A DNA stretch of 62,881 bases from Nostoc linckia z4 (GTDB lineage Bacteria > Cyanobacteriota > Cyanobacteriia > Cyanobacteriales > Nostocaceae), in NCBI RefSeq assembly GCF_002608075.1, contig NZ_LAHA01000035.1, positions 14,453 to 77,333 of the forward strand, given 5' to 3'. A program made the translations under genes and the position numbers. Below the pieces are notes generated by a model. It was given only the letters and a program-made list of their open reading frames with translations. It had not been told where the DNA came from and did no database searches. Positions 15,410 through 31,411 of the stretch are shown piece after piece (positions within the stretch are counted from its first letter, which is position 1; each line of letters opens with the position of its first letter).

Positions 15410-16811
15410 GTTTCAATCCCTAATAGGGATTAAGAAAAATTGTAACTCTGCTTTATGTTGCCTTAACTCGCAGTAAATCAGGTTTCAATCCCTAATAGGG
15501 ATTAAGGAAAATTGTAACGCAGGCATTTATGGGGTTATCACGCCTAAATGATGTTTCAATCCCTAATAGGGATTAAGAAAAATTGTAACCTGTTGTAAAT
15601 ATTCAACGCTATTCTCCTCATAGTTTCAATCCCTAATAGGGATTAAGAAAAATTGTAACCGACTACCCTGTATCTGGAATTTTTATTGACTGGGGTTTCA
15701 ATCCCTAATAGGGATTAAGAAAAATTGTAACTCAGAAGATCCTTTACCACCGATTAATTTGAGTTGGTTTCAATCCCTAATAGGGATTAAGAAAAATTGT
15801 AACTACAACAAGTTTCTGTAAGGTGTCTTGCGTACTCTCGAAGTTTCAATCCCTAATAGGGATTAAGAAAAATTGTAACTCTAACAGTTGGTAGCACTCC
15901 ATACCATCCAGTTTCAATCCCTAATAGGGATTAAGAAAAATTGTAACCAAAGGGAAAGACGCGAGCAATCGCATGGATTCTGTTTCAATCCCTAATAGGG
16001 ATTAAGAAAAATTGTAACATTGGCGATGATTGGGAATATGCCTAGAATTCGTTTCAATCCCTAATAGGGATTAAGAAAAATTGTAACGCAAAGTCTAGCT
16101 GTTCATCTTCTGCAAAGTTTTCGTTTCAATCCCTAATAGGGATTAAGAAAAATTGTAACTTGTTAATCTAGTGGCGTCACGATACTTTTCTCTTGGTTTC
16201 AATCCCTAATAGGGATTAAGAAAAATTGTAACCCGGTCACTGCGGCACTTCCTAAAGTTGCTACACCAGTGTTTCAATCCCTAATAGGGATTAAGAAAAA
16301 TTGTAACTTAAACTACTCTGAGTGTAATAGTCAATATCTAAGTTTCAATCCCTAATAGGGATTAAGAAAAATTGTAACTCCTTGTCGGTTGCTGGGTTTT
16401 CACCTTTTCCTATGTTTCAATCCCTAATAGGGATTAAGAAAAATTGTAACTCTTAGCTGTAGACCCATGCGAGATAGATGAAGAGTTTCAATCCCTAATA
16501 GGGATTAAGAAAAATTGTAACCACCATTTAGCAGAATTTGAATCTCACGAATCACGTTTCAATCCCTAATAGGGATTAAGAAAAATTGTAACAGTTTTAT
16601 TTGGTCTTTTGATAGAGTTATGAACTCAGTTTCAATCCCTAATAGGGATTAAGAAAAATTGTAACAACTTAATTGCTTGTACTACAACTTCTTGAGGTAA
16701 CGTTTCAATCCCTAATAGGGATTAAGAAAAATTGTAACACCAGTCTGAGAAACGTAAGCTTGAGCAACTTCGATGTTTCAATCCCTAATAGGGATTAAGA
16801 AAAATTGTAAC
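15410..16811 (-). CRISPR. CRISPR array, 20 repeats / 19 spacers
   Basis: 37-bp repeat GTTTCAATCCCTAATAGGGATTAAGAAAAATTGTAAC (repeat 2 has one A>G change). Unique spacers of 31-39 bp. The reverse complement ends in ATTGAAAC, hence the minus-strand call. Confidence 0.95.
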
Positions 16812-26591: not shown

Positions 26592-26924
26592 TTAAACTCG
26601 CAATGCATCACGCATAAAAATCACTAATTTTGGAAGTGCCTGAAAAAATTCCTTTTCGTTATTGAATTGGTGAGTTTCAAGAAAGACATTGTTACTTGTA
26701 GATATTTCAATAATTTCCATTACACAAGCTCCTGACTCCCAAACTGTTACTCTACCAAGATGTAATAAACTCTCAAAATCAAGACACATAGCTGAATTAT
26801 CACTAGGTTGACAGTAGGTCAGCGTGTATTTCAGCTGATAAGCAGCAAAACGTGACTTTAATCCTGATTGAAATCTGTCAAAACCTCGTTCTGAGATTAG
26901 TTTTGTTAGTGGATTGATACTCAT
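26592..26924 (-). CDS. hypothetical protein
   Basis: 110-aa ORF with no recognisable motif. Confidence 0.45.
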   Translation of the reverse strand: MSINPLTKLISERGFDRFQSGLKSRFAAYQLKYTLTYCQPSDNSAMCLDFESLLHLGRVTVWESGACVMEIIEISTSNNVFLETHQFNNEKEFFQALPKLVIFMRDALRV

Positions 26925-27014
26925 TTATGATTATAGAAGTTTTCATTTGCTGTGACTATACATTAGTAGCTTCAAGTTAGAATATGATACTTTACACCAA
27001 TTTTTACTTTATCC

Positions 27015-27677
27015 ATGACAATTTTGATCGTAGAAACTCTATGCTCCGAAGCTGCTATATTTTCAGCAACCGAGTCTTTACATCCAGAACCTTTGCTATA
27101 TGGTGTGACTGATGGTAAGGCTGTCGGGACATACTTGGAACAAAAATTTAGACTTTATCTCAAACAGCGATATGAATTTGTAGAGGGTAATTCTGCAAGC
27201 AGTATTGACTTTCCAGGGTTACTTGTAGATGTGAAGGTAACAAGCATTCGACAACCACAATCATCATGTCCTTTCAAATCTGCACGTCAAAAGATATTTG
27301 GGCTTGGGTATTCGCTGCTGATTTTCGTCTACGATAAAACAGACAATAGTACGAACCGCACAGCAACCCTAAATATTTTGCATACTATTTATGTAAGCGC
27401 CGAAAGAACCGCAGATTTTCAGATGACTCGTGCAATTCGCAATATCATAGCAAACGAAGGTAATAAAGATGATTTAATTGCCTTCATGCTCGATCGCAAT
27501 TTACCCGTTGATGAAATTGAGGCAAGCAACATTGCCGATGAAATTATGAGCAATCCACCGGTACAGGGTTTTCTGACTATTTCCAACGCTTTGCAATGGC
27601 GACTCCAGTATGGAAGAGTAATAGAACGTGCTGGTCAAGAAGATGGTATAATTCCTGTTTACAAAATTAATCAATGA
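27015..27677 (+). CDS. probable type II restriction endonuclease
   Basis: 220 aa. PD-(D/E)xK-like IDFPGLLVDVKVTS. 4-nt ATGA overlap with the downstream methyltransferase. Confidence 0.55.
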   Translation: MTILIVETLCSEAAIFSATESLHPEPLLYGVTDGKAVGTYLEQKFRLYLKQRYEFVEGNSASSIDFPGLLVDVKVTSIRQPQSSCPFKSARQKIFGLGYSLLIFVYDKTDNSTNRTATLNILHTIYVSAERTADFQMTRAIRNIIANEGNKDDLIAFMLDRNLPVDEIEASNIADEIMSNPPVQGFLTISNALQWRLQYGRVIERAGQEDGIIPVYKINQ

Positions 27678-29116
27678 CTCATACTGCACATAAAACAAAG
27701 ATAGAGTACGGAGATTTCCAGACACCATTAGAATTAGCTAATAAAGTATGTAAAAAGCTAGTTGCACTCGGCATAACACCAGATATTATAGTTGAGCCAA
27801 CGTGTGGAGTTGGTAATTTTATTGAAGCAGCTTTAGATTCATTTCAATCAGTAAATAAAATTTTTGGAGTTGAAATCAATCCCGATTATTTAAATCAAGC
27901 TCAAACAAAAGCTAAATTTGTTAATCATAAAAGAATTGAAATTATATATGGAAATTTTTTTAAATTTGATTGGTCATCAATTATAGAAAAATCAAATCAT
28001 CAAATATTAGTAATTGGTAATTTACCTTGGGTAACAAACTCGCAGCAAGGTAGCATTGATGGAAAGAATTTACCAAATAAGAGTAATTTCCAAAACTATT
28101 CTGGTTTAGATGCAATTACAGGTAAGAGTAATTTTGATATATCTGAATGGATGTTAATTCAAGTTGTGCAATGGCTACAAAAGCGTGAAGGTTATCTAGC
28201 GATTTTATGTAAGAGTTCTGTTGCTAGGAAAATATTAACGTATATTAGTTCTCAAAAATTACATCTTGCTTACTGTGCAACTTACAAAATAGATACAAAA
28301 AAATATTTTGATGCTACTGTTGACGCGTGTTTACTGTTATGTAGATTTGAGTCAAATTCCAAAAATTATTTCTGTGATGTATTCAGTAGCCTTGAAACTT
28401 CTAATTATTATCGAATAGGTTATTGGAATAATGTACTTGTCAGAGATATTATTACATTTGAAAAACTACAAAATCTATACGATAAAAAATCAAAAATAAA
28501 ATGGCGCTCTGGTATTAAGCATGATTGCGCCAGTGTGATGGAGTTTCGCAAAATTAACAACACTCTGATTAATGGATTGGGAGAAGCTGTTGGTATTGAA
28601 GAAACATATCTGTTTCCTTTGCTTAAAGGTTCCTATGTTGCTCAAAATAAAACAAAGGTTACTGATAGATATGTTTTAGTAACTCAAAGATTTGTGGGTG
28701 AATCTATCGAACATATTAAAAATTACGCTCCTAAAACTTGGAACTATCTAGAAGCATATTCACAATACCTCGACAAAAGAAAAAGTAAGATTTATCAAAA
28801 TAACCCTCGATTTTCTATTTTTGGTGTAGGTTCGTATACTTTTGCACCTTGGAAAATTGCAATTTGTGGACTTTACAAAAAATTGGACTTTAGATTGATA
28901 GGTAAGATAGAAGAAAAACCTACTGTTTTTGATGATACAGTTTACTTTATTAGCTTTGATGATGAGAAAATTGCATATAAAACTTTTGAACTTTTGACTT
29001 CTTCAATAGCAAAAGAATTTTATTCGTCTCTAATTTTTTGGGATGAAAAGCGCCCAATCAAGTCTAGTATTTTAAATAAATTAAACTTGGCAGCTTTGGC
29101 AGAAGTATTAATTTGA
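27674..29116 (+). CDS. N6-adenine DNA methyltransferase
   Basis: 480 aa. SAM motif I EPTCGVGNFIEAA and motif IV-like VIGNLPWV. AT-rich gene. Confidence 0.75.
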   Translation: MTHTAHKTKIEYGDFQTPLELANKVCKKLVALGITPDIIVEPTCGVGNFIEAALDSFQSVNKIFGVEINPDYLNQAQTKAKFVNHKRIEIIYGNFFKFDWSSIIEKSNHQILVIGNLPWVTNSQQGSIDGKNLPNKSNFQNYSGLDAITGKSNFDISEWMLIQVVQWLQKREGYLAILCKSSVARKILTYISSQKLHLAYCATYKIDTKKYFDATVDACLLLCRFESNSKNYFCDVFSSLETSNYYRIGYWNNVLVRDIITFEKLQNLYDKKSKIKWRSGIKHDCASVMEFRKINNTLINGLGEAVGIEETYLFPLLKGSYVAQNKTKVTDRYVLVTQRFVGESIEHIKNYAPKTWNYLEAYSQYLDKRKSKIYQNNPRFSIFGVGSYTFAPWKIAICGLYKKLDFRLIGKIEEKPTVFDDTVYFISFDDEKIAYKTFELLTSSIAKEFYSSLIFWDEKRPIKSSILNKLNLAALAEVLI

Positions 29117-29240: not shown

Positions 29241-30779
29241 TCACTGCCCGTTAATCCGAATCAAGTCTGTCAAAATATTATCCAAACTGCCGTTAACTTG
29301 AATGCGATCGATTTTCTCTGCAATGCGTTCTAAAACTTCGAGTTCCTTGAGACGCAAAGCTACAGGGTTATCTTCCATCACTTTGGCAGTGTTTAACATA
29401 CTGCGGGTGGCGGCGGTTTCTTCTCTGCGTCTGACTACGTTTGCTTGAGCAGCTTTTTCGGCTTCGACTACTTTGCTCAAGATTGTCTTAATCTCGCCGG
29501 GTAAGATAATATCTTTGACGCCTACAGAATCTACTTCGATTCCATAGTCGGCGGTTTTTTGGCGGATATATTCAGATATGCTTGTGTCAATTGCACCTTT
29601 ATCTTCTAATAAGGCATCTAAGTTGCGTTCGCCGATCGCACCACGCAATGCAAATTGTAATTCTTTGTATAAGAAGCCGGCAATATCTGACAAGCCGCTT
29701 TTTGCTCTCAAGGGATCGAGGATGCGGAAGCCAGCTGTCAAATTTAACCGCAGAGGTACTTTATCCTTAGAAAGGATATCTTGACCTGATACTTCCATGT
29801 TTTGCAGTCTCAAGTCGATGGTTTCGGTTTGAAAGGAGCGTCCAAATAACCACCAAGCGTGTATACCTGGCGATCGCTGTCCTTGAAACTCTTGATTAAT
29901 ATACAGTAGTCCGGTGTGCTGTGCGGGTACTTGGCATGTATGCAAACAGTTGCGACTGAGCAATTTCACTTCTGCCGAACCTTCAACCAACTCAGCAACT
30001 AAGCGAGGCTCTAACTGAGCATCAGTGCTGATGTCGATAATTTCCACCTCAACACCTTGCCAAAACAGCTTGCGACTTGTGGGTGGTAAAATAGAAATCG
30101 CTTTACCTCGATACCGCACAATTGCAACTTGCCAATTCAGTAATTGTACTGTTTGGCAGTAAGCAGCAATAAAATCTGGATGTTTTTCAATTAGAACATC
30201 TTCTAGAGGAAAGTCTGGGTTAGGAACAATTCGGCTAAGAGTCCGTACTGTAACATCCCGATCCACTGACCAAAAAGCATATTCTCCAGGTTCTAGAGGT
30301 CGCACAAAATCATTTTGTACATACAGTAAACCAATCTCATACTCCGAAATTTGGAACTTTTTCACTCCATTCAAGCTGATTTTACGTAGTTGCTGCACAA
30401 AAGAACTAGGCAATTCTAAACTTTCTTCTAAGTTGAAGACATAAGATTCTACCTCAATAAAACCACGCCAAAAAGCTACCAATTGATTTGGTGCAACGCT
30501 TACCCAATTCTGGCCGTAGCGTACTAAAGCGGCTTGGTTGTATGCGGTTCTGATAATCAGTAAATGTTGTTGCAGTTCAGTCTGATGATTTCGCAACAAC
30601 AGCTCCAGGTTTTCAATTTGAGCTTGTGGCTGGTTGAGGTCATAAGTTTTTACTTGCCAATGACGACCAAAATAAGTATGTGTACCAGGCTGTAAAATTT
30701 TCTGGAAGTCGCTGCGGTGATATAAAATACCGATTTCGTTAGGTTTTATATAAAATGTTTTCCACATAGTAATTTGCAT
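29241..30779 (-). CDS. SPFH/band-7 (slipin-like) protein with triplicated N-terminal domain
   Basis: 512 aa. C-terminal SPFH core plus coiled coil (GIEVDSVGVKDIILPGEIKTILSKVVEAEKAAQANV). Three N-terminal repeats (EIGILYHRSDF, EIGLLYVQNDF, HTGLLYINQEF). Confidence 0.8.
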   Translation of the reverse strand: MQITMWKTFYIKPNEIGILYHRSDFQKILQPGTHTYFGRHWQVKTYDLNQPQAQIENLELLLRNHQTELQQHLLIIRTAYNQAALVRYGQNWVSVAPNQLVAFWRGFIEVESYVFNLEESLELPSSFVQQLRKISLNGVKKFQISEYEIGLLYVQNDFVRPLEPGEYAFWSVDRDVTVRTLSRIVPNPDFPLEDVLIEKHPDFIAAYCQTVQLLNWQVAIVRYRGKAISILPPTSRKLFWQGVEVEIIDISTDAQLEPRLVAELVEGSAEVKLLSRNCLHTCQVPAQHTGLLYINQEFQGQRSPGIHAWWLFGRSFQTETIDLRLQNMEVSGQDILSKDKVPLRLNLTAGFRILDPLRAKSGLSDIAGFLYKELQFALRGAIGERNLDALLEDKGAIDTSISEYIRQKTADYGIEVDSVGVKDIILPGEIKTILSKVVEAEKAAQANVVRRREETAATRSMLNTAKVMEDNPVALRLKELEVLERIAEKIDRIQVNGSLDNILTDLIRINGQ

Positions 30780-30916
30780 AGATAATTTGACCAGATTTAA
30801 TCAAAACATTTATAACCTCGCTGGAAACTAAATACCACCTATAATTCTGGAGTTGACAAACCTATAAATAAAGGTTGAAGGATTTGTTTGAGGTTTTGTA
30901 GTATTATATTACATTT

Positions 30917-31287
30917 TACTCTGCCGGCGCAGGTGTTTATAGTTTGGGATGCGGGCAAAAGCTTCTCCAGAACTGGATTAAGATTGCTGTTAGTTTTAAT
31001 AGACGGCTCAAAGGCAATCTAGAAAAACAGAACCGCGCTCAAATATGCCGATCGCTTTGCCAATCTAGAATTTCCGAAGTCAAAGCAGATATAGGAAAAC
31101 GAAGGTACATACTCAAGTTGGGGAGAGATTACAGTTGCGCTGGCTCCTTTACTGTTACGAACACCTGCATGACAGAGTACAAAAAACAAAAAGTTTTTTC
31201 ACTGGGTTTTTTTGAATCGCCCAATACATCTAGCTGTGACACTGCCTTGTCCCTAACAAGGTGCCCGTACCCAGGGCAGGGGTTTTT
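30917..31287 (-). ncRNA. structured non-coding region, module B body (homologue of 32604-32968)
   Basis: Patchy but strong conservation with module A (41-nt block with 1 mismatch, 30950-30990 vs 32634-32674; 31094-31155 vs 32761-32821). Many local hairpins. No conserved ORF. Strand inferred from the tRNA orientation. Confidence 0.5.
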
Positions 31288-31363
31288 TGGCTGAAAGTAT
31301 AGGAATCGAACCTATAATGAATCGGCGATACACCGATCGCTCTACCAAATGAGCTAACTTTCA
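31288..31363 (-). tRNA. tRNA-like cloverleaf with encoded CCA but non-canonical anticodon loop (UGUAUCG)
   Basis: Manual fold: TGAAAGT/ACTTTCA acceptor, GCTC/GAGC D stem, ATCGG/CCGAT anticodon stem, ATAGG-TTCGATT-CCTAT T arm, G-CCA. G at position 33 and C at position 37, so probably non-decoding. Confidence 0.6.
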
Positions 31364-31411
31364 TGGTGAAATAGTTGGAAGCATTAAGCGGTATACGCTA
31401 TTACCAGAGGT

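What the first reader, a model, noticed from the sequence alone, without database searches (positions are those of the whole stretch)
31288..31363. Third cloverleaf keeps the tRNA shape and CCA but has lost a usable anticodon loop
All four stems are perfect: TGAAAGT/ACTTTCA, GCTC/GAGC, ATCGG/CCGAT and ATAGG/CCTAT. The T loop TTCGATT and the G-CCA end are retained. The anticodon loop is UGUAUCG, with G instead of U33 and C instead of a purine at position 37, and the first pair is U1-A72. Keeping the fold while decoding features decay suggests selection on tRNA shape (processing, RT or CCA-enzyme recognition) rather than on translation. It sits between the RT stop and the module B body, in front of the SPFH gene.
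Basis: partly seen in the sequence, partly recalled or inferred. Interest (0 to 1): 0.6.

Follow-up and report, generated by a model that had tools for sequence, protein, structure and literature searches.

The report
tRNA-shaped domain in conserved leader RNA
A tRNA look-alike that cannot read codons is a conserved, selected part of a long structured RNA lying between a retron-type reverse transcriptase gene and a stomatin-like (SPFH) gene in cyanobacteria, and its odd "anticodon" hairpin is fixed rather than decaying.

Summary
The cloverleaf is real. It lies on the minus strand at 31363..31288, and ARAGORN and Rfam both call it a tRNA (51.9 bits). It is not decaying. In 16 distinct orthologues, with RT identity down to about 61%, the anticodon arm ATCGG-TGTATCG-CCGAT never changes from position 28 to 43, while the variable loop, T stem and 3' tail do change. 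More distant loci keep the loop through compensatory stem swaps. The arm is predicted to close into a long stem with a UAU triloop, so it is not a decoder.

It is one domain of a roughly 570-nt RNA module: a promoter-like box, a structured "head", tRNA-like unit(s), hairpins, and a body closed by a covarying inverted repeat. One copy precedes the retron-type (type XIII-like) RT and a paralogous copy precedes the SPFH gene. The same module sits upstream of this SPFH gene across cyanobacteria, including PCC 7120, and in GC-rich non-cyanobacterial-looking contigs, usually without an RT. There the equivalent unit has a canonical CUCAUAA-type loop. The UGUAUC loop occurs only where an RT, or an RT remnant, lies just upstream.

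Best reading: a tRNA mimic kept for its shape, probably for processing, with an arm repurposed as a specific recognition hairpin. Function is untested. No match for the module was found in Rfam or the searched literature.

The parts
31288..31363 (-). tRNA-like unit 't3' (the finding): acceptor 31363-31357/31298-31292, D arm 31354-31339, anticodon arm 31337-31321, variable loop 31320-31316, T arm 31315-31299, G-CCA 31291-31288
   Evidence: ARAGORN; Rfam tRNA 51.9 bits; sequence; cloverleaf MFE fold, z -3.35; pair counts on 16 orthologues
31321..31337 (-). Anticodon-arm hairpin ATCGG-TGTATCG-CCGAT (loop 31332-31326). Predicted to close into an 8-bp stem with a UAU triloop.
   Evidence: Positions 28-43 unchanged in 16 distinct orthologues. 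Compensatory stem variants in L038 and L143. Fold. The loop occurs only next to an RT or an RT remnant.
31371..31488 (-). Module B 'head': structured RNA domain. It begins with a conserved extended -10-like box TGTGCTAAATT (31488-31478; hexamer TAAATT at 31483-31478).
   Evidence: Direct repeat D2, 79% identical to 33128-33245. Alignment of 27 heads. RNAalifold gives 29 pairs, 10 with compensatory changes. Promoter function is inferred only; the simple -35/-10 scan did not flag it.
31245..31278 (-). Two linker hairpins directly 3' of t3: TGCCC-TGGGTAC-GGGCA (31278-31262) and CCTTGT-TAGGG-ACAAGG (31261-31245)
   Evidence: Conserved in all B-type modules. The first hairpin covaries (GCCC/GGGC, GTCC/GGAC, GCTC/GAGC).
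30918..31178 (-). Module B 'body': 261-nt structured RNA closed by the inverted repeat a1 (31178-31160, ACTCTGTCATGCAGGTGTT) and a2 (30937-30918, AACACCTGCGCCGGCAGAGT)
   Evidence: Alignment of 37 bodies and RNAalifold. The a1/a2 stem has many compensatory changes: pair 8:343 in 16 sequences, 14:336 in 13, 12:338 in 6.
29241..30779 (-). SPFH / slipin-family gene (512 aa) downstream of module B
   Evidence: Pfam Band_7 5e-29. PDB stomatin hits. 78-97% identical in related loci. About 80% identical across cyanobacteria. AF2 model pLDDT 81.
31534..32586 (-). Retron-type reverse transcriptase (350 aa) immediately upstream of module B
   Evidence: Pfam RVT_1 1.7e-23. PADLOC RT_XIII 9.6e-150. NAQPH, YADD and VTG motifs in the translation.
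32603..33245 (-). Paralogous module A upstream of the RT: head 33245-33128, t1 33121-33046, t2 33044-32969 (both with CUCAUAA loops), body a1..a2 32880-32603. It ends 16 nt before the RT ATG.
   Evidence: Module A and B are 74% identical over about 640 nt. Repeats D1-D8. ARAGORN and Rfam.

Best explanation
t3 is a selected, non-decoding tRNA mimic. It forms one domain of a conserved composite noncoding RNA, or long leader, called the 'module' here: promoter-like box, structured head, tRNA-like unit(s), hairpins, and a body closed by the a1/a2 inverted repeat.

Shown:
- The module is an old companion of this SPFH gene. It is found in many cyanobacteria and in GC-rich contigs.
- In this lineage it is duplicated, so that one copy precedes a retron-type RT and the other, carrying t3, precedes SPFH.
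- The L-shape determinants of t3 are conserved and its stems covary.
- Its anticodon arm is fixed as ATCGG-UGUAUCG-CCGAU. It is predicted to be a closed hairpin with a UAU triloop, and it lacks U33 and a purine at position 37.
- This loop type is found only in modules that lie directly downstream of an RT or an RT remnant. RT-less loci carry canonical CU-NNN-AA loops, mostly CAU.

Inferred:
- The primary transcript starts at the conserved TGnTAAATT box or reads through from the RT gene.
- The tRNA shape recruits RNase P at the 5' side, and RNase Z and the CCA-adding enzyme at the 3' side. This 'punctuation' would separate the head (and the RT mRNA 3' end) from the downstream body and SPFH mRNA.
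- The remodelled anticodon hairpin no longer serves anticodon recognition. It acts as a sequence-specific recognition site. The RT is the most likely partner, and the SPFH protein or another RNA segment are alternatives. The hairpin would mark the SPFH-proximal copy as distinct from the CAU-type copy upstream of the RT.
For: - Real tRNA-like fold.
- 16 distinct orthologues are 99.1% paired. T-stem pairs 50:66 and 51:65 change on both sides, against 38-48% pairing in slid controls.
- Arm positions 28-43 never vary, while the variable loop, tail and pair 1:72 do.
- Loop kept with compensatory stem swaps in L038 (where the T and D arms are degraded) and in PCC 7424.
- In the paralogue family, 18 distinct t2 sequences have CTCATAA with covarying stems (ATCGA/TCGAT, ATTGG/CCAAT, ACGGT/ACCGT). 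13 distinct t3 sequences have TGTATCG.
- Module architecture and duplication.
- Head and body are structured, with covariation.
- The module sits upstream of SPFH without an RT in PCC 7120 and in metagenomic loci, and in GC-rich contigs where SPFH is only 40% identical.
- Loop state tracks the RT state on the SPFH tree.
- The conserved TGCTAnATT box lies at the 5' edge of every cyanobacterial head.
- Established knowledge: RNase P and RNase Z recognise the acceptor/T-arm stack and the elbow, not the anticodon. tRNA mimics such as YrlA and mascRNA are processed this way.
Against: - There is no expression or processing data for any of these loci. Promoter, cleavage and CCA addition are all inferred.
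- The simple promoter scan did not flag the box.
- A pure processing role does not need an invariant anticodon arm, and no ligand for it was identified.
- A search for a covarying complementary RNA site found only an 8/9 match to the RT codons for YTRYADD. That match is absent in this window.
- The link between the RT and the loop is not phylogenetically independent. RT-less loci such as L130 look like deletions between the two repeat copies, which would remove t3 and the RT together.
- L027, L088 and L117 have an RT directly upstream of a module that keeps a CAU loop.
- PCC 7424 keeps the t3-type arm although only a short RT remnant is left.
Confidence: 0.5

Rival explanations
1. t3 belongs to the retron's own ncRNA in the strict sense. 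Module B, which is the only module in single-module RT loci, would be the RT's cognate template RNA. The a1/a2-closed body would be the msr-msd equivalent. The tRNA-like unit would be the RT-binding handle, or would supply a processed 3' end (CCA-3'OH) or a fixed 5' boundary for cDNA synthesis. SPFH would be the effector.
For: - The RT is retron-type: PADLOC RT_XIII 1e-149, with NAxxH, VTG and YADD motifs.
- The body is flanked by a long covarying inverted repeat, like a1/a2.
- Module A ends 16 nt before the RT start, the usual ncRNA-RT layout.
- Single-module loci are arranged RT-module(t3)-SPFH (L013, L095/L113, L132/L134).
- The UGUAUC loop occurs only next to an RT or an RT remnant.
Against: - The same module, with the same a1/a2 body, precedes SPFH in many genomes that have no RT within 4-9 kb: PCC 7120, L082, L106, L125 and L130. 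The RNA therefore does not depend on an adjacent RT.
- t3 lies outside the a1/a2 stem.
- Canonical type XIII RT loci (L012-L080) lack the module motifs and lack tRNA-like units.
- No branching-G context could be identified.
- The encoded CCA is not conserved.
Confidence: 0.22
2. t3 is a plain tRNA pseudogene, or the relic of a tRNA-gene integration site duplicated when the RT was inserted. It would be drifting, with no function of its own.
For: - It is a paralogue of a neighbouring CAU-type unit (80% identical to t2).
- It has lost U33 and a purine at position 37.
- Direct repeats flank the RT.
- Degraded versions exist in L038 and L075.
Against: - Stems stay paired with compensatory changes, and arm positions 28-43 are unchanged across Nostoc, Microcoleus, Kamptonema, Chroococcidiopsis and metagenomic loci, with RT identity down to about 61%.
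- Loop kept with compensatory stem swaps in L038 and PCC 7424.
- The repeat is about 640 nt of structured RNA, not a tRNA 3' half.
- No integrase lies next to it.
Confidence: 0.04
3. t3 is a working tRNA-Ile(UAU) that decodes AUA, as ARAGORN labels it.
For: - ARAGORN call.
- Good cloverleaf, T loop and D loop.
- Encoded CCA in this window.
Against: - G33 and C37 break two nearly universal features of a decoding loop (established tRNA knowledge).
- The loop is predicted to be closed to a triloop.
- Pair 1:72 is often mismatched and the CCA is not conserved.
- The orthologous position in other genomes carries CAU, GUU, GAU or short closed loops on the same acceptor stem. This is incompatible with a fixed amino-acid identity.
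- It is embedded in a larger conserved RNA.
Confidence: 0.02
4. The conservation acts on DNA rather than RNA. The arm would be a palindromic protein-binding site or a HIP1-related (GCGATCGC-like) sequence maintained by a DNA-level process.
For: - The arm is an inverted repeat and overlaps GCGATCG-like strings typical of cyanobacteria.
- A terminator-like hairpin on the + strand abuts the 3' end.
Against: - The symmetric G-C to C-G and C-G to G-C swaps in L038 and PCC 7424 keep the pairing but change the bases a DNA-binding protein would read.
- The whole cloverleaf, head and body covary as RNA.
- The loop itself is asymmetric.
Confidence: 0.03

Closest known systems
Bacterial Y RNA-like YrlA (tRNA-mimic domain of Ro60/Rsr-bound ncRNA)
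   Same: A noncoding RNA with a module that mimics the tRNA acceptor/T/D architecture and does not decode. Such mimics are handled by tRNA processing and modification enzymes (own knowledge: Chen et al. 2014; Sim and Wolin 2018). It is encoded next to the gene of a large ring- or cage-forming protein.
   Different: - The Rfam YrlA model scores only 28 bits against a gathering score of 69, and that hit lies on t1/t2, not on t3.
- None of the nine neighbouring ORFs scanned with Pfam matched a Ro60/TROVE, RtcB or PNPase family.
- Here the mimic is a complete cloverleaf with a remodelled anticodon arm, set inside a roughly 570-nt module.
tRNA-like processing signals (MALAT1 mascRNA; tRNA-mRNA co-transcripts such as the E. 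coli thrU-tyrU-glyT-thrT-tufB operon; mitochondrial tRNA punctuation)
   Same: A tRNA-shaped element embedded in a longer transcript. RNase P and RNase Z cleavage at its borders would define the ends of the flanking RNAs. Units sit in tandem upstream of a protein gene.
   Different: Those cases use real tRNAs or mimics with no sequence constraint on the anticodon arm. Here the arm is the most constrained part. Cleavage has not been shown.
Retron msr-msd ncRNA (type XIII retrons, Mestre et al. 2020, PMC7736814)
   Same: The adjacent RT matches the type XIII retron RT profile best. The module body is closed by a long covarying inverted repeat and sits just upstream of the RT, like a1/a2-flanked msr-msd.
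   Different: - Type XIII is defined by WH-SWIM and ARM/HEAT partners. Here the neighbours are an SPFH protein and a 230-aa ORF with no family match.
- tRNA-like units are not reported for any retron type in that paper (0 occurrences of 'tRNA').
- The module mostly occurs without an RT.
- t3 lies outside the inverted repeat.
3' tRNA-like structures recognised by reverse transcriptases or replicases (Mauriceville retroplasmid, plant-virus TLS)
   Same: A tRNA-like fold ending in CCA, next to an RT gene.
   Different: Those elements sit at the 3' terminus of the template and need the CCA. Here the CCA is not conserved, the element is internal, and retron RTs prime from a 2'-OH of an internal G (own knowledge).
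Vault particle (major vault protein plus vault RNA plus TEP1)
   Same: - The SPFH protein has repeated N-terminal beta domains, an SPFH core, long helices and no N-terminal membrane anchor.
- Small structured RNAs are encoded next to the protein gene, and an RT is sometimes attached.
   Different: - The protein is 512 aa against about 860 aa for MVP.
- There is no evidence that the RNA binds the protein.
- This is an analogy, not a membership claim.

Membership tests
Canonical decoding tRNA | Cloverleaf with 7/4/5/5-bp stems and elbow nucleotides (G18G19, T54-Psi55-C56) | tested here: met
   Sequence; Rfam tRNA 51.9 bits; conserved in 16 orthologues
Canonical decoding tRNA | Open 7-nt anticodon loop with U33 and a purine at position 37 | tested here: not met
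   The loop is UGUAUCG with G33 and C37. It is predicted to close into a stem with a UAU triloop. This state is fixed in all orthologues.
Canonical decoding tRNA | Stable amino-acid identity: the anticodon and acceptor identity elements are conserved together | tested here: not met
   The same GAAAGU/ACUUUC acceptor carries CAU, GUU, GAU, UUU, UAU or short closed loops in orthologous or paralogous positions. Pair 1:72 is often mismatched.
Canonical decoding tRNA | Aminoacylation and use on the ribosome | not testable with these tools
   Needs charging assays or tRNA-seq
tRNA pseudogene | Random decay of stems and loops among homologues | tested here: not met
   99.1% of cells paired, compensatory changes, and an unchanged arm over positions 28-43
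Retron (msr-msd ncRNA plus RT plus effector) | Retron-clade RT with NAxxH and VTG motifs | tested here: met
   PADLOC RT_XIII 9.6e-150; NCBIfam retron families; motifs in the translation
Retron (msr-msd ncRNA plus RT plus effector) | ncRNA flanked by the a1/a2 inverted repeat, next to the RT | tested here: inconclusive
   The module body has a covarying 15-19-bp closing stem and module A abuts the RT. However, the same RNA occurs widely without an RT, and t3 itself lies outside the stem.
Retron (msr-msd ncRNA plus RT plus effector) | Production of branched msDNA from a priming G | not testable with these tools
   Needs RT-DNA isolation and sequencing
Type XIII retron (Mestre 2020) | Linked WH-SWIM protein, usually with an ARM/HEAT protein | tested here: not met
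   The genes adjacent to the RT are an SPFH protein and a 230-aa ORF with no Pfam or PADLOC match. Definition taken from PMC7736814.
YrlA / bacterial Y RNA | Match to the Rfam RF02553 covariance model | tested here: not met
   28 bits against a gathering score of 69, located on t1/t2
YrlA / bacterial Y RNA | Neighbouring rsr (Ro60/TROVE) gene | tested here: not met
   No TROVE-family hit among the nine ORFs between 24854 and 36223 that were scanned with Pfam
tRNA-like processing signal (mascRNA type) | RNase P and RNase Z cleavage at the borders, releasing the flanking RNAs | not testable with these tools
   Only the substrate determinants (acceptor/T stack, elbow) could be checked. They are conserved.

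The most novel reading that the evidence does not exclude
The module RNAs and the SPFH protein would form a vault-like ribonucleoprotein. In this reading the soluble, MVP-like, multi-domain SPFH protein builds a cage. The tRNA-mimic RNAs are its bound or packaged RNA components. In the RT-bearing lineages a retron-type RT copies the a1/a2 body. The fixed UGUAUCG hairpin of t3 would be the handle that couples the RT (or its cDNA product) to the SPFH assembly. This would be a prokaryotic counterpart of vault plus vault RNA plus a telomerase-associated protein, possibly acting as a new retron class with an SPFH effector.
Probability: 0.08. Interest if true: 0.9.

Novelty: new variant of a known kind. 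Interest (0 to 1): 0.62.

Why it matters
- **An apparently undescribed RNA.** The finding led to a widely conserved structured RNA that I could not find described: a head, one to three tRNA mimics, and a body of about 260-330 nt. It sits in front of a highly conserved cyanobacterial SPFH gene, including in the model strain PCC 7120, where it can be tested directly.
- **Repurposing, not just loss.** A tRNA mimic can lose decoding and also gain a new, strictly fixed hairpin. This happened exactly in the copies that sit behind a retron-type RT.
- **A possible unclassified RT system.** If the RT uses this RNA, this would be an RT-ncRNA-SPFH system outside the 13 retron types.
- **Annotation risk.** tRNA finders label the element 'tRNA-Ile(UAU)'. 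That label would give a false picture of AUA decoding in these genomes.

Tried and rejected
- **Known RNA families.** An Rfam search at E <= 1 over 30700-33400 gave only the three tRNA hits, a weak YrlA hit (28 bits) and a weak chance plastid-RNA hit (23.9 bits). Neither the head nor the body matches any family.
- **Plasmids.** A BLAST search of the whole region against plasmids matched only tRNA genes of unrelated bacteria and gave no annotated homologue.
- **Literature.** Six full-text searches covered retrons with type XIII, SPFH or tRNA-like elements, SPFH with anti-phage defence, and PCC 7120 with tRNA-like elements. None found a description of this RNA or of an RT-SPFH system. The PCC 7120 dRNA-seq paper (PMC3250118) is not held.
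- **An RNA partner for the t3 loop.** The only recurrent complementary site is the RT codons for YTRYADD, at 8/9 matches, and it is absent in this window. I judged it coincidental.
- **A long-range inverted repeat.** Head B is about 82% complementary to RT mRNA at 32026-32010. I did not pursue this.
- **A protein-coding reading of the body.** This concerned the + strand ORF at 30944-31294. I rejected it because the paralogous copy has no such ORF, the indels are not multiples of three, and the stems covary.
- **Promoters.** The simple sigma-70 scan gave nothing useful on the minus strand.
- **T-box-like pairing.** I considered a codon-anticodon pairing between the variable t2 anticodon and the body. 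I saw no covarying triplet in the alignments and did not test this formally.
- **Failed look-up.** The look-up of P0235 (Oscillatoria nigro-viridis SPFH) found no record.

Full report
**1. The observation**

On the minus strand, 31363..31288 reads TGAAAGT-TA-GCTC-ATTTGGTA-GAGC-G-ATCGG-TGTATCG-CCGAT-TCATT-ATAGG-TTCGATT-CCTAT-ACTTTCA-G-CCA.
- four perfect stems;
- T loop TTCGATT;
- G-CCA end;
- loop UGUAUCG with G33 and C37;
- U1-A72 first pair.

ARAGORN calls it tRNA-Ile(tat). The Rfam tRNA model gives 51.9 bits (gathering score 29, E = 3e-8). The MFE fold is a cloverleaf with z = -3.35. In that fold the anticodon arm closes (G26.U44, U32.G38, G33-C37) into an 8-bp stem with a UAU triloop.

**2. 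Surroundings in the window**

On the minus strand the order is:
- a 230-aa ORF with no family match;
- module A: head 33245-33128, two tRNA-like units t1 and t2 with CUCAUAA loops (33121-32969), and a body ending at 32603;
- a 350-aa reverse transcriptase (32586-31534);
- module B: head 31488-31371, t3, two hairpins, and the body 31178-30918;
- a 512-aa SPFH/Band 7 protein (30779-29241).

Modules A and B are 74% identical over about 640 nt. t3 is 80% identical to t2.

The RT is retron-type. Its best PADLOC profile is RT_XIII at 9.6e-150, it matches NCBIfam retron families, and it carries NAQPH, YADD and VTG motifs. Type XIII retrons are defined by WH-SWIM and ARM partners (PMC7736814). Neither is adjacent here.

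**3.

A genome scan with an RT alignment returned 80 loci. The arrangement 'two tRNA-like units, RT, tRNA-Ile(tat), SPFH' recurs in Nostoc, Stigonema, Microcoleus, Kamptonema and Chroococcidiopsis. A metagenome scan used a pattern that did not specify the anticodon arm, and it added more loci.

In 16 distinct t3 orthologues, positions 28-43 of the arm (TCGG-TGTATCG-CCGAT) do not change at all. Position 27, which opens the stem, is A or G, giving a G.U wobble in four sequences. Elsewhere there is variation:
- the 5-nt variable loop has at least nine variants;
- the 3' tail varies (GCCA, ACCA, CCCA, CC-AA, GGCA, none);
- pair 1:72 varies;
- the T stem changes with compensation.

Overall 99.1% of cells are paired, against 38-48% in slid controls.

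Two more distant loci keep the loop through changes on both sides of the stem. L038 has GATCGC-TGTATCG-GCGATC, although its D and T arms are degraded. Gloeothece PCC 7424 has ATGGG-TGTATCC-CCCAT.

So the stems are maintained and the 'loop' does not drift. It is the most constrained part of the element. This rules out a plain pseudogene. It also corrects the idea that the decoding features are decaying: they were replaced by a new fixed sequence.

**4. The module is a structured RNA**

*The head.* Heads from 23 modules fold into a multi-helix domain of 29 pairs, 10 of them with compensatory changes. At its 5' edge every cyanobacterial head carries a conserved TG-n-TA(A/G/C)ATT box that looks like an extended -10 element. 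Its function as a promoter is inferred. A simple -35/-10 scan did not report it.

*The body.* Bodies from 37 modules are closed by an inverted repeat, a1 ACTCTG...GTGTT and a2 AACAC...CAGAGT. Covariation in this stem is strong: pair 8:343 changes on both sides in 16 sequences, 14:336 in 13, and 12:338 in 6. The body also has internal helices.

*The linker.* The hairpins after the tRNA-like units covary as well.

Rfam 15 has no family matching the head or the body.

**5. The module belongs first to the SPFH gene, not to the RT**

The SPFH protein ('slipin family protein', 508-528 aa) is about 80% identical across cyanobacteria. This is more conserved than the RT, which is 53-82% identical across the loci.

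In Anabaena/Nostoc PCC 7120 the module lies upstream of an OmdA-like gene and the SPFH gene, with no RT within 4 kb. It has the promoter-like box, the head, a degenerate t1, a t2 with a GUU anticodon loop, and the body.

Metagenomic loci L082, L106, L125 and L130 also have module plus SPFH and no RT. GC-rich contigs where SPFH is only 40% identical (L096, L100, L109) still show part of the pattern:
- the head motifs were read directly in L096 (CCGGTGCGCC, GCGTATGCCGC), and a looser motif match precedes the units in L100;
- L096 has a t1 with a closed tetraloop;
- all three contigs have a t2 that begins GAAAGTTAGCTC and has a CTCATAA loop.

In the t2/t3 family, 18 distinct sequences have CTCATAA on covarying stems. 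A few have CTGTTAA or CTGATAA, and 13 have TGTATCG. Because one acceptor stem carries several 'anticodons' or short closed loops, these units are tRNA mimics and not decoders.

**6. Link between the t3 loop and the RT**

Every locus with an RT directly upstream of the SPFH-proximal module has the UGUAUC loop. No RT-less locus has it. On an SPFH tree the two states are interleaved.

Single-module loci (L013, L095/L113, L132/L134) are arranged RT-module(t3)-SPFH.

The association has caveats:
- L130 carries an A-type module fused to SPFH. It looks like a deletion between the two repeat copies, which would remove the RT and t3 together. The association is therefore not a set of independent events.
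- L027, L088 and L117 have an RT followed by a module that keeps a CAU loop.
- PCC 7424 keeps the t3 arm next to a mere RT remnant.
- In L075 the RT 3' end is fused into the middle of t3.

**7. Mechanism**

*Shown:* t3 is a conserved L-shaped tRNA mimic with a closed, fixed anticodon hairpin. It sits inside a conserved structured RNA, between an RT gene and an SPFH gene.

*Inferred:* the tRNA shape recruits RNase P at the 5' side and RNase Z with the CCA-adding enzyme at the 3' side. These enzymes read the acceptor/T-arm stack and the elbow, which are exactly the parts conserved here. The primary transcript would then be cut into the head (with the RT mRNA 3' end), the tRNA-like RNA, and the body with the SPFH mRNA.

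The fixed UGUAUCG hairpin is not needed for that role, so it most likely serves as a sequence-specific recognition site. From co-occurrence the RT is the favoured partner, and the SPFH protein or another RNA are alternatives. I found no convincing RNA partner. I give this combined account a confidence of 0.5. The descriptive part is much more secure than the processing and recognition steps.

**8. Rivals**

- *Strict retron reading (0.22).* Module B would be the RT's template RNA and t3 its handle. It fits the RT type and the a1/a2-like stem. It is weakened by the many RT-less modules and by t3 lying outside the stem.
- *Pseudogene or integration relic (0.04).* Contradicted by the conservation pattern.
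- *Working tRNA-Ile(UAU) (0.02).* Contradicted by G33, C37, the closed loop and the variable identity on a fixed acceptor stem.
- *DNA-level palindrome (0.03).* Contradicted by the compensatory stem swaps.

**9. Comparison with known systems**

It works most like the tRNA-mimic domains of bacterial Y RNAs (YrlA), and like tRNA-like processing signals such as mascRNA or tRNA-mRNA co-transcripts. It is not a member of YrlA: the score is 28 bits against 69, and no Ro60 gene was found among the nine neighbouring ORFs scanned. It is not a canonical tRNA, because the loop test fails. It is not a type XIII retron as defined, because no WH-SWIM or ARM partner is adjacent.

No paper describing this RNA or an RT-SPFH system was found in six searches. 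I rate it a new variant of a known kind, namely a tRNA mimic inside a noncoding RNA. It is embedded in a module that itself appears to be undescribed.

**10. Side observation on the SPFH protein**

Noticed in passing
[not shown]
   Followed up: partly
L142 2720-3300 (Anabaena/Nostoc PCC 7120, BA000019.2 about 860,560-861,140): The model strain carries the same head, tRNA-like units and body upstream of an OmdA-like gene, the SPFH gene, an RRM protein gene and rpsU. No RT is nearby. Here t2 has a GUU loop and t1 is degenerate. This is a ready experimental system.
   Followed up: partly
L096 4050-4800 (-), L100, L109: GC-rich, apparently non-cyanobacterial metagenome contigs with an SPFH homologue of 40% identity. 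All three keep a t2 with the A/U-rich GAAAGTTAGCTC 5' half and a CTCATAA loop. L096, read directly, also keeps the head motifs and a t1 with a closed tetraloop. The module is therefore old, and its acceptor stem is constrained at the sequence level.
   Followed up: partly
L130 2742-3608: This RT-less locus has an SPFH protein 94% identical to the window's, but it carries an A-type module, including the A-specific hairpin insertion, fused to SPFH. It looks like a deletion of the RT plus module B by recombination between the two direct-repeat modules.
   Followed up: partly
L143 1435-2370 (Gloeothece citriformis PCC 7424): Only a short C-terminal remnant of the RT ORF remains upstream of the module. 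The t3-type arm persists as ATGGG-TGTATCC-CCCAT.
   Followed up: yes
L075 5880-5990: The 3' end of the RT ORF (…FANFVA) runs directly into the 3' half of t3 (GGTGTATCGCCGAT…). A deletion has fused the gene and the tRNA-like unit.
   Followed up: no
window 32820-32865 (-), module A body: A-type bodies carry an extra hairpin of about 37 nt (…CTGTCGCTCATCAC…GTGATG…) just after a1. It is absent from all B-type bodies in loci that have both an RT and SPFH.
   Followed up: no
window 32997-33097 (-): A weak Rfam hit to YrlA (Y RNA-like), 28 bits against a gathering score of 69. It spans the 3' half of t1 and the 5' half of t2.
   Followed up: partly
window 15410-16811 (-): A CRISPR array of about 20 repeats matching Rfam CRISPR-DR5.
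   Followed up: no
window 26592-29116: A type II restriction-modification pair: REase at 27015-27677 and MTase at 27674-29116. A TriTu immunity-protein gene lies at 26592-26924, directly beyond the SPFH gene. This is a defence-island-like context.
   Followed up: no
window 31262-31288 (+) and 32926-32944 (+): Terminator-like hairpin plus T-run on the opposite strand, abutting the 3' ends of t3 and t2. On the minus strand these are the conserved linker hairpins preceded by an A-run.
   Followed up: no
window 31408-31424 and 33165-33181 versus 32010-32026: The most conserved head motif (GACTGGTGCGCCAACCT on the RNA strand) is 76-82% complementary to a stretch inside the RT coding region.
   Followed up: no
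window 31288-31363 and orthologues: tRNA finders label t3 'tRNA-Ile(UAU)', and label the upstream units tRNA-Met, Asn, Tyr, Ser and others. Public annotations of these genomes may therefore list spurious tRNA genes.
   Followed up: no
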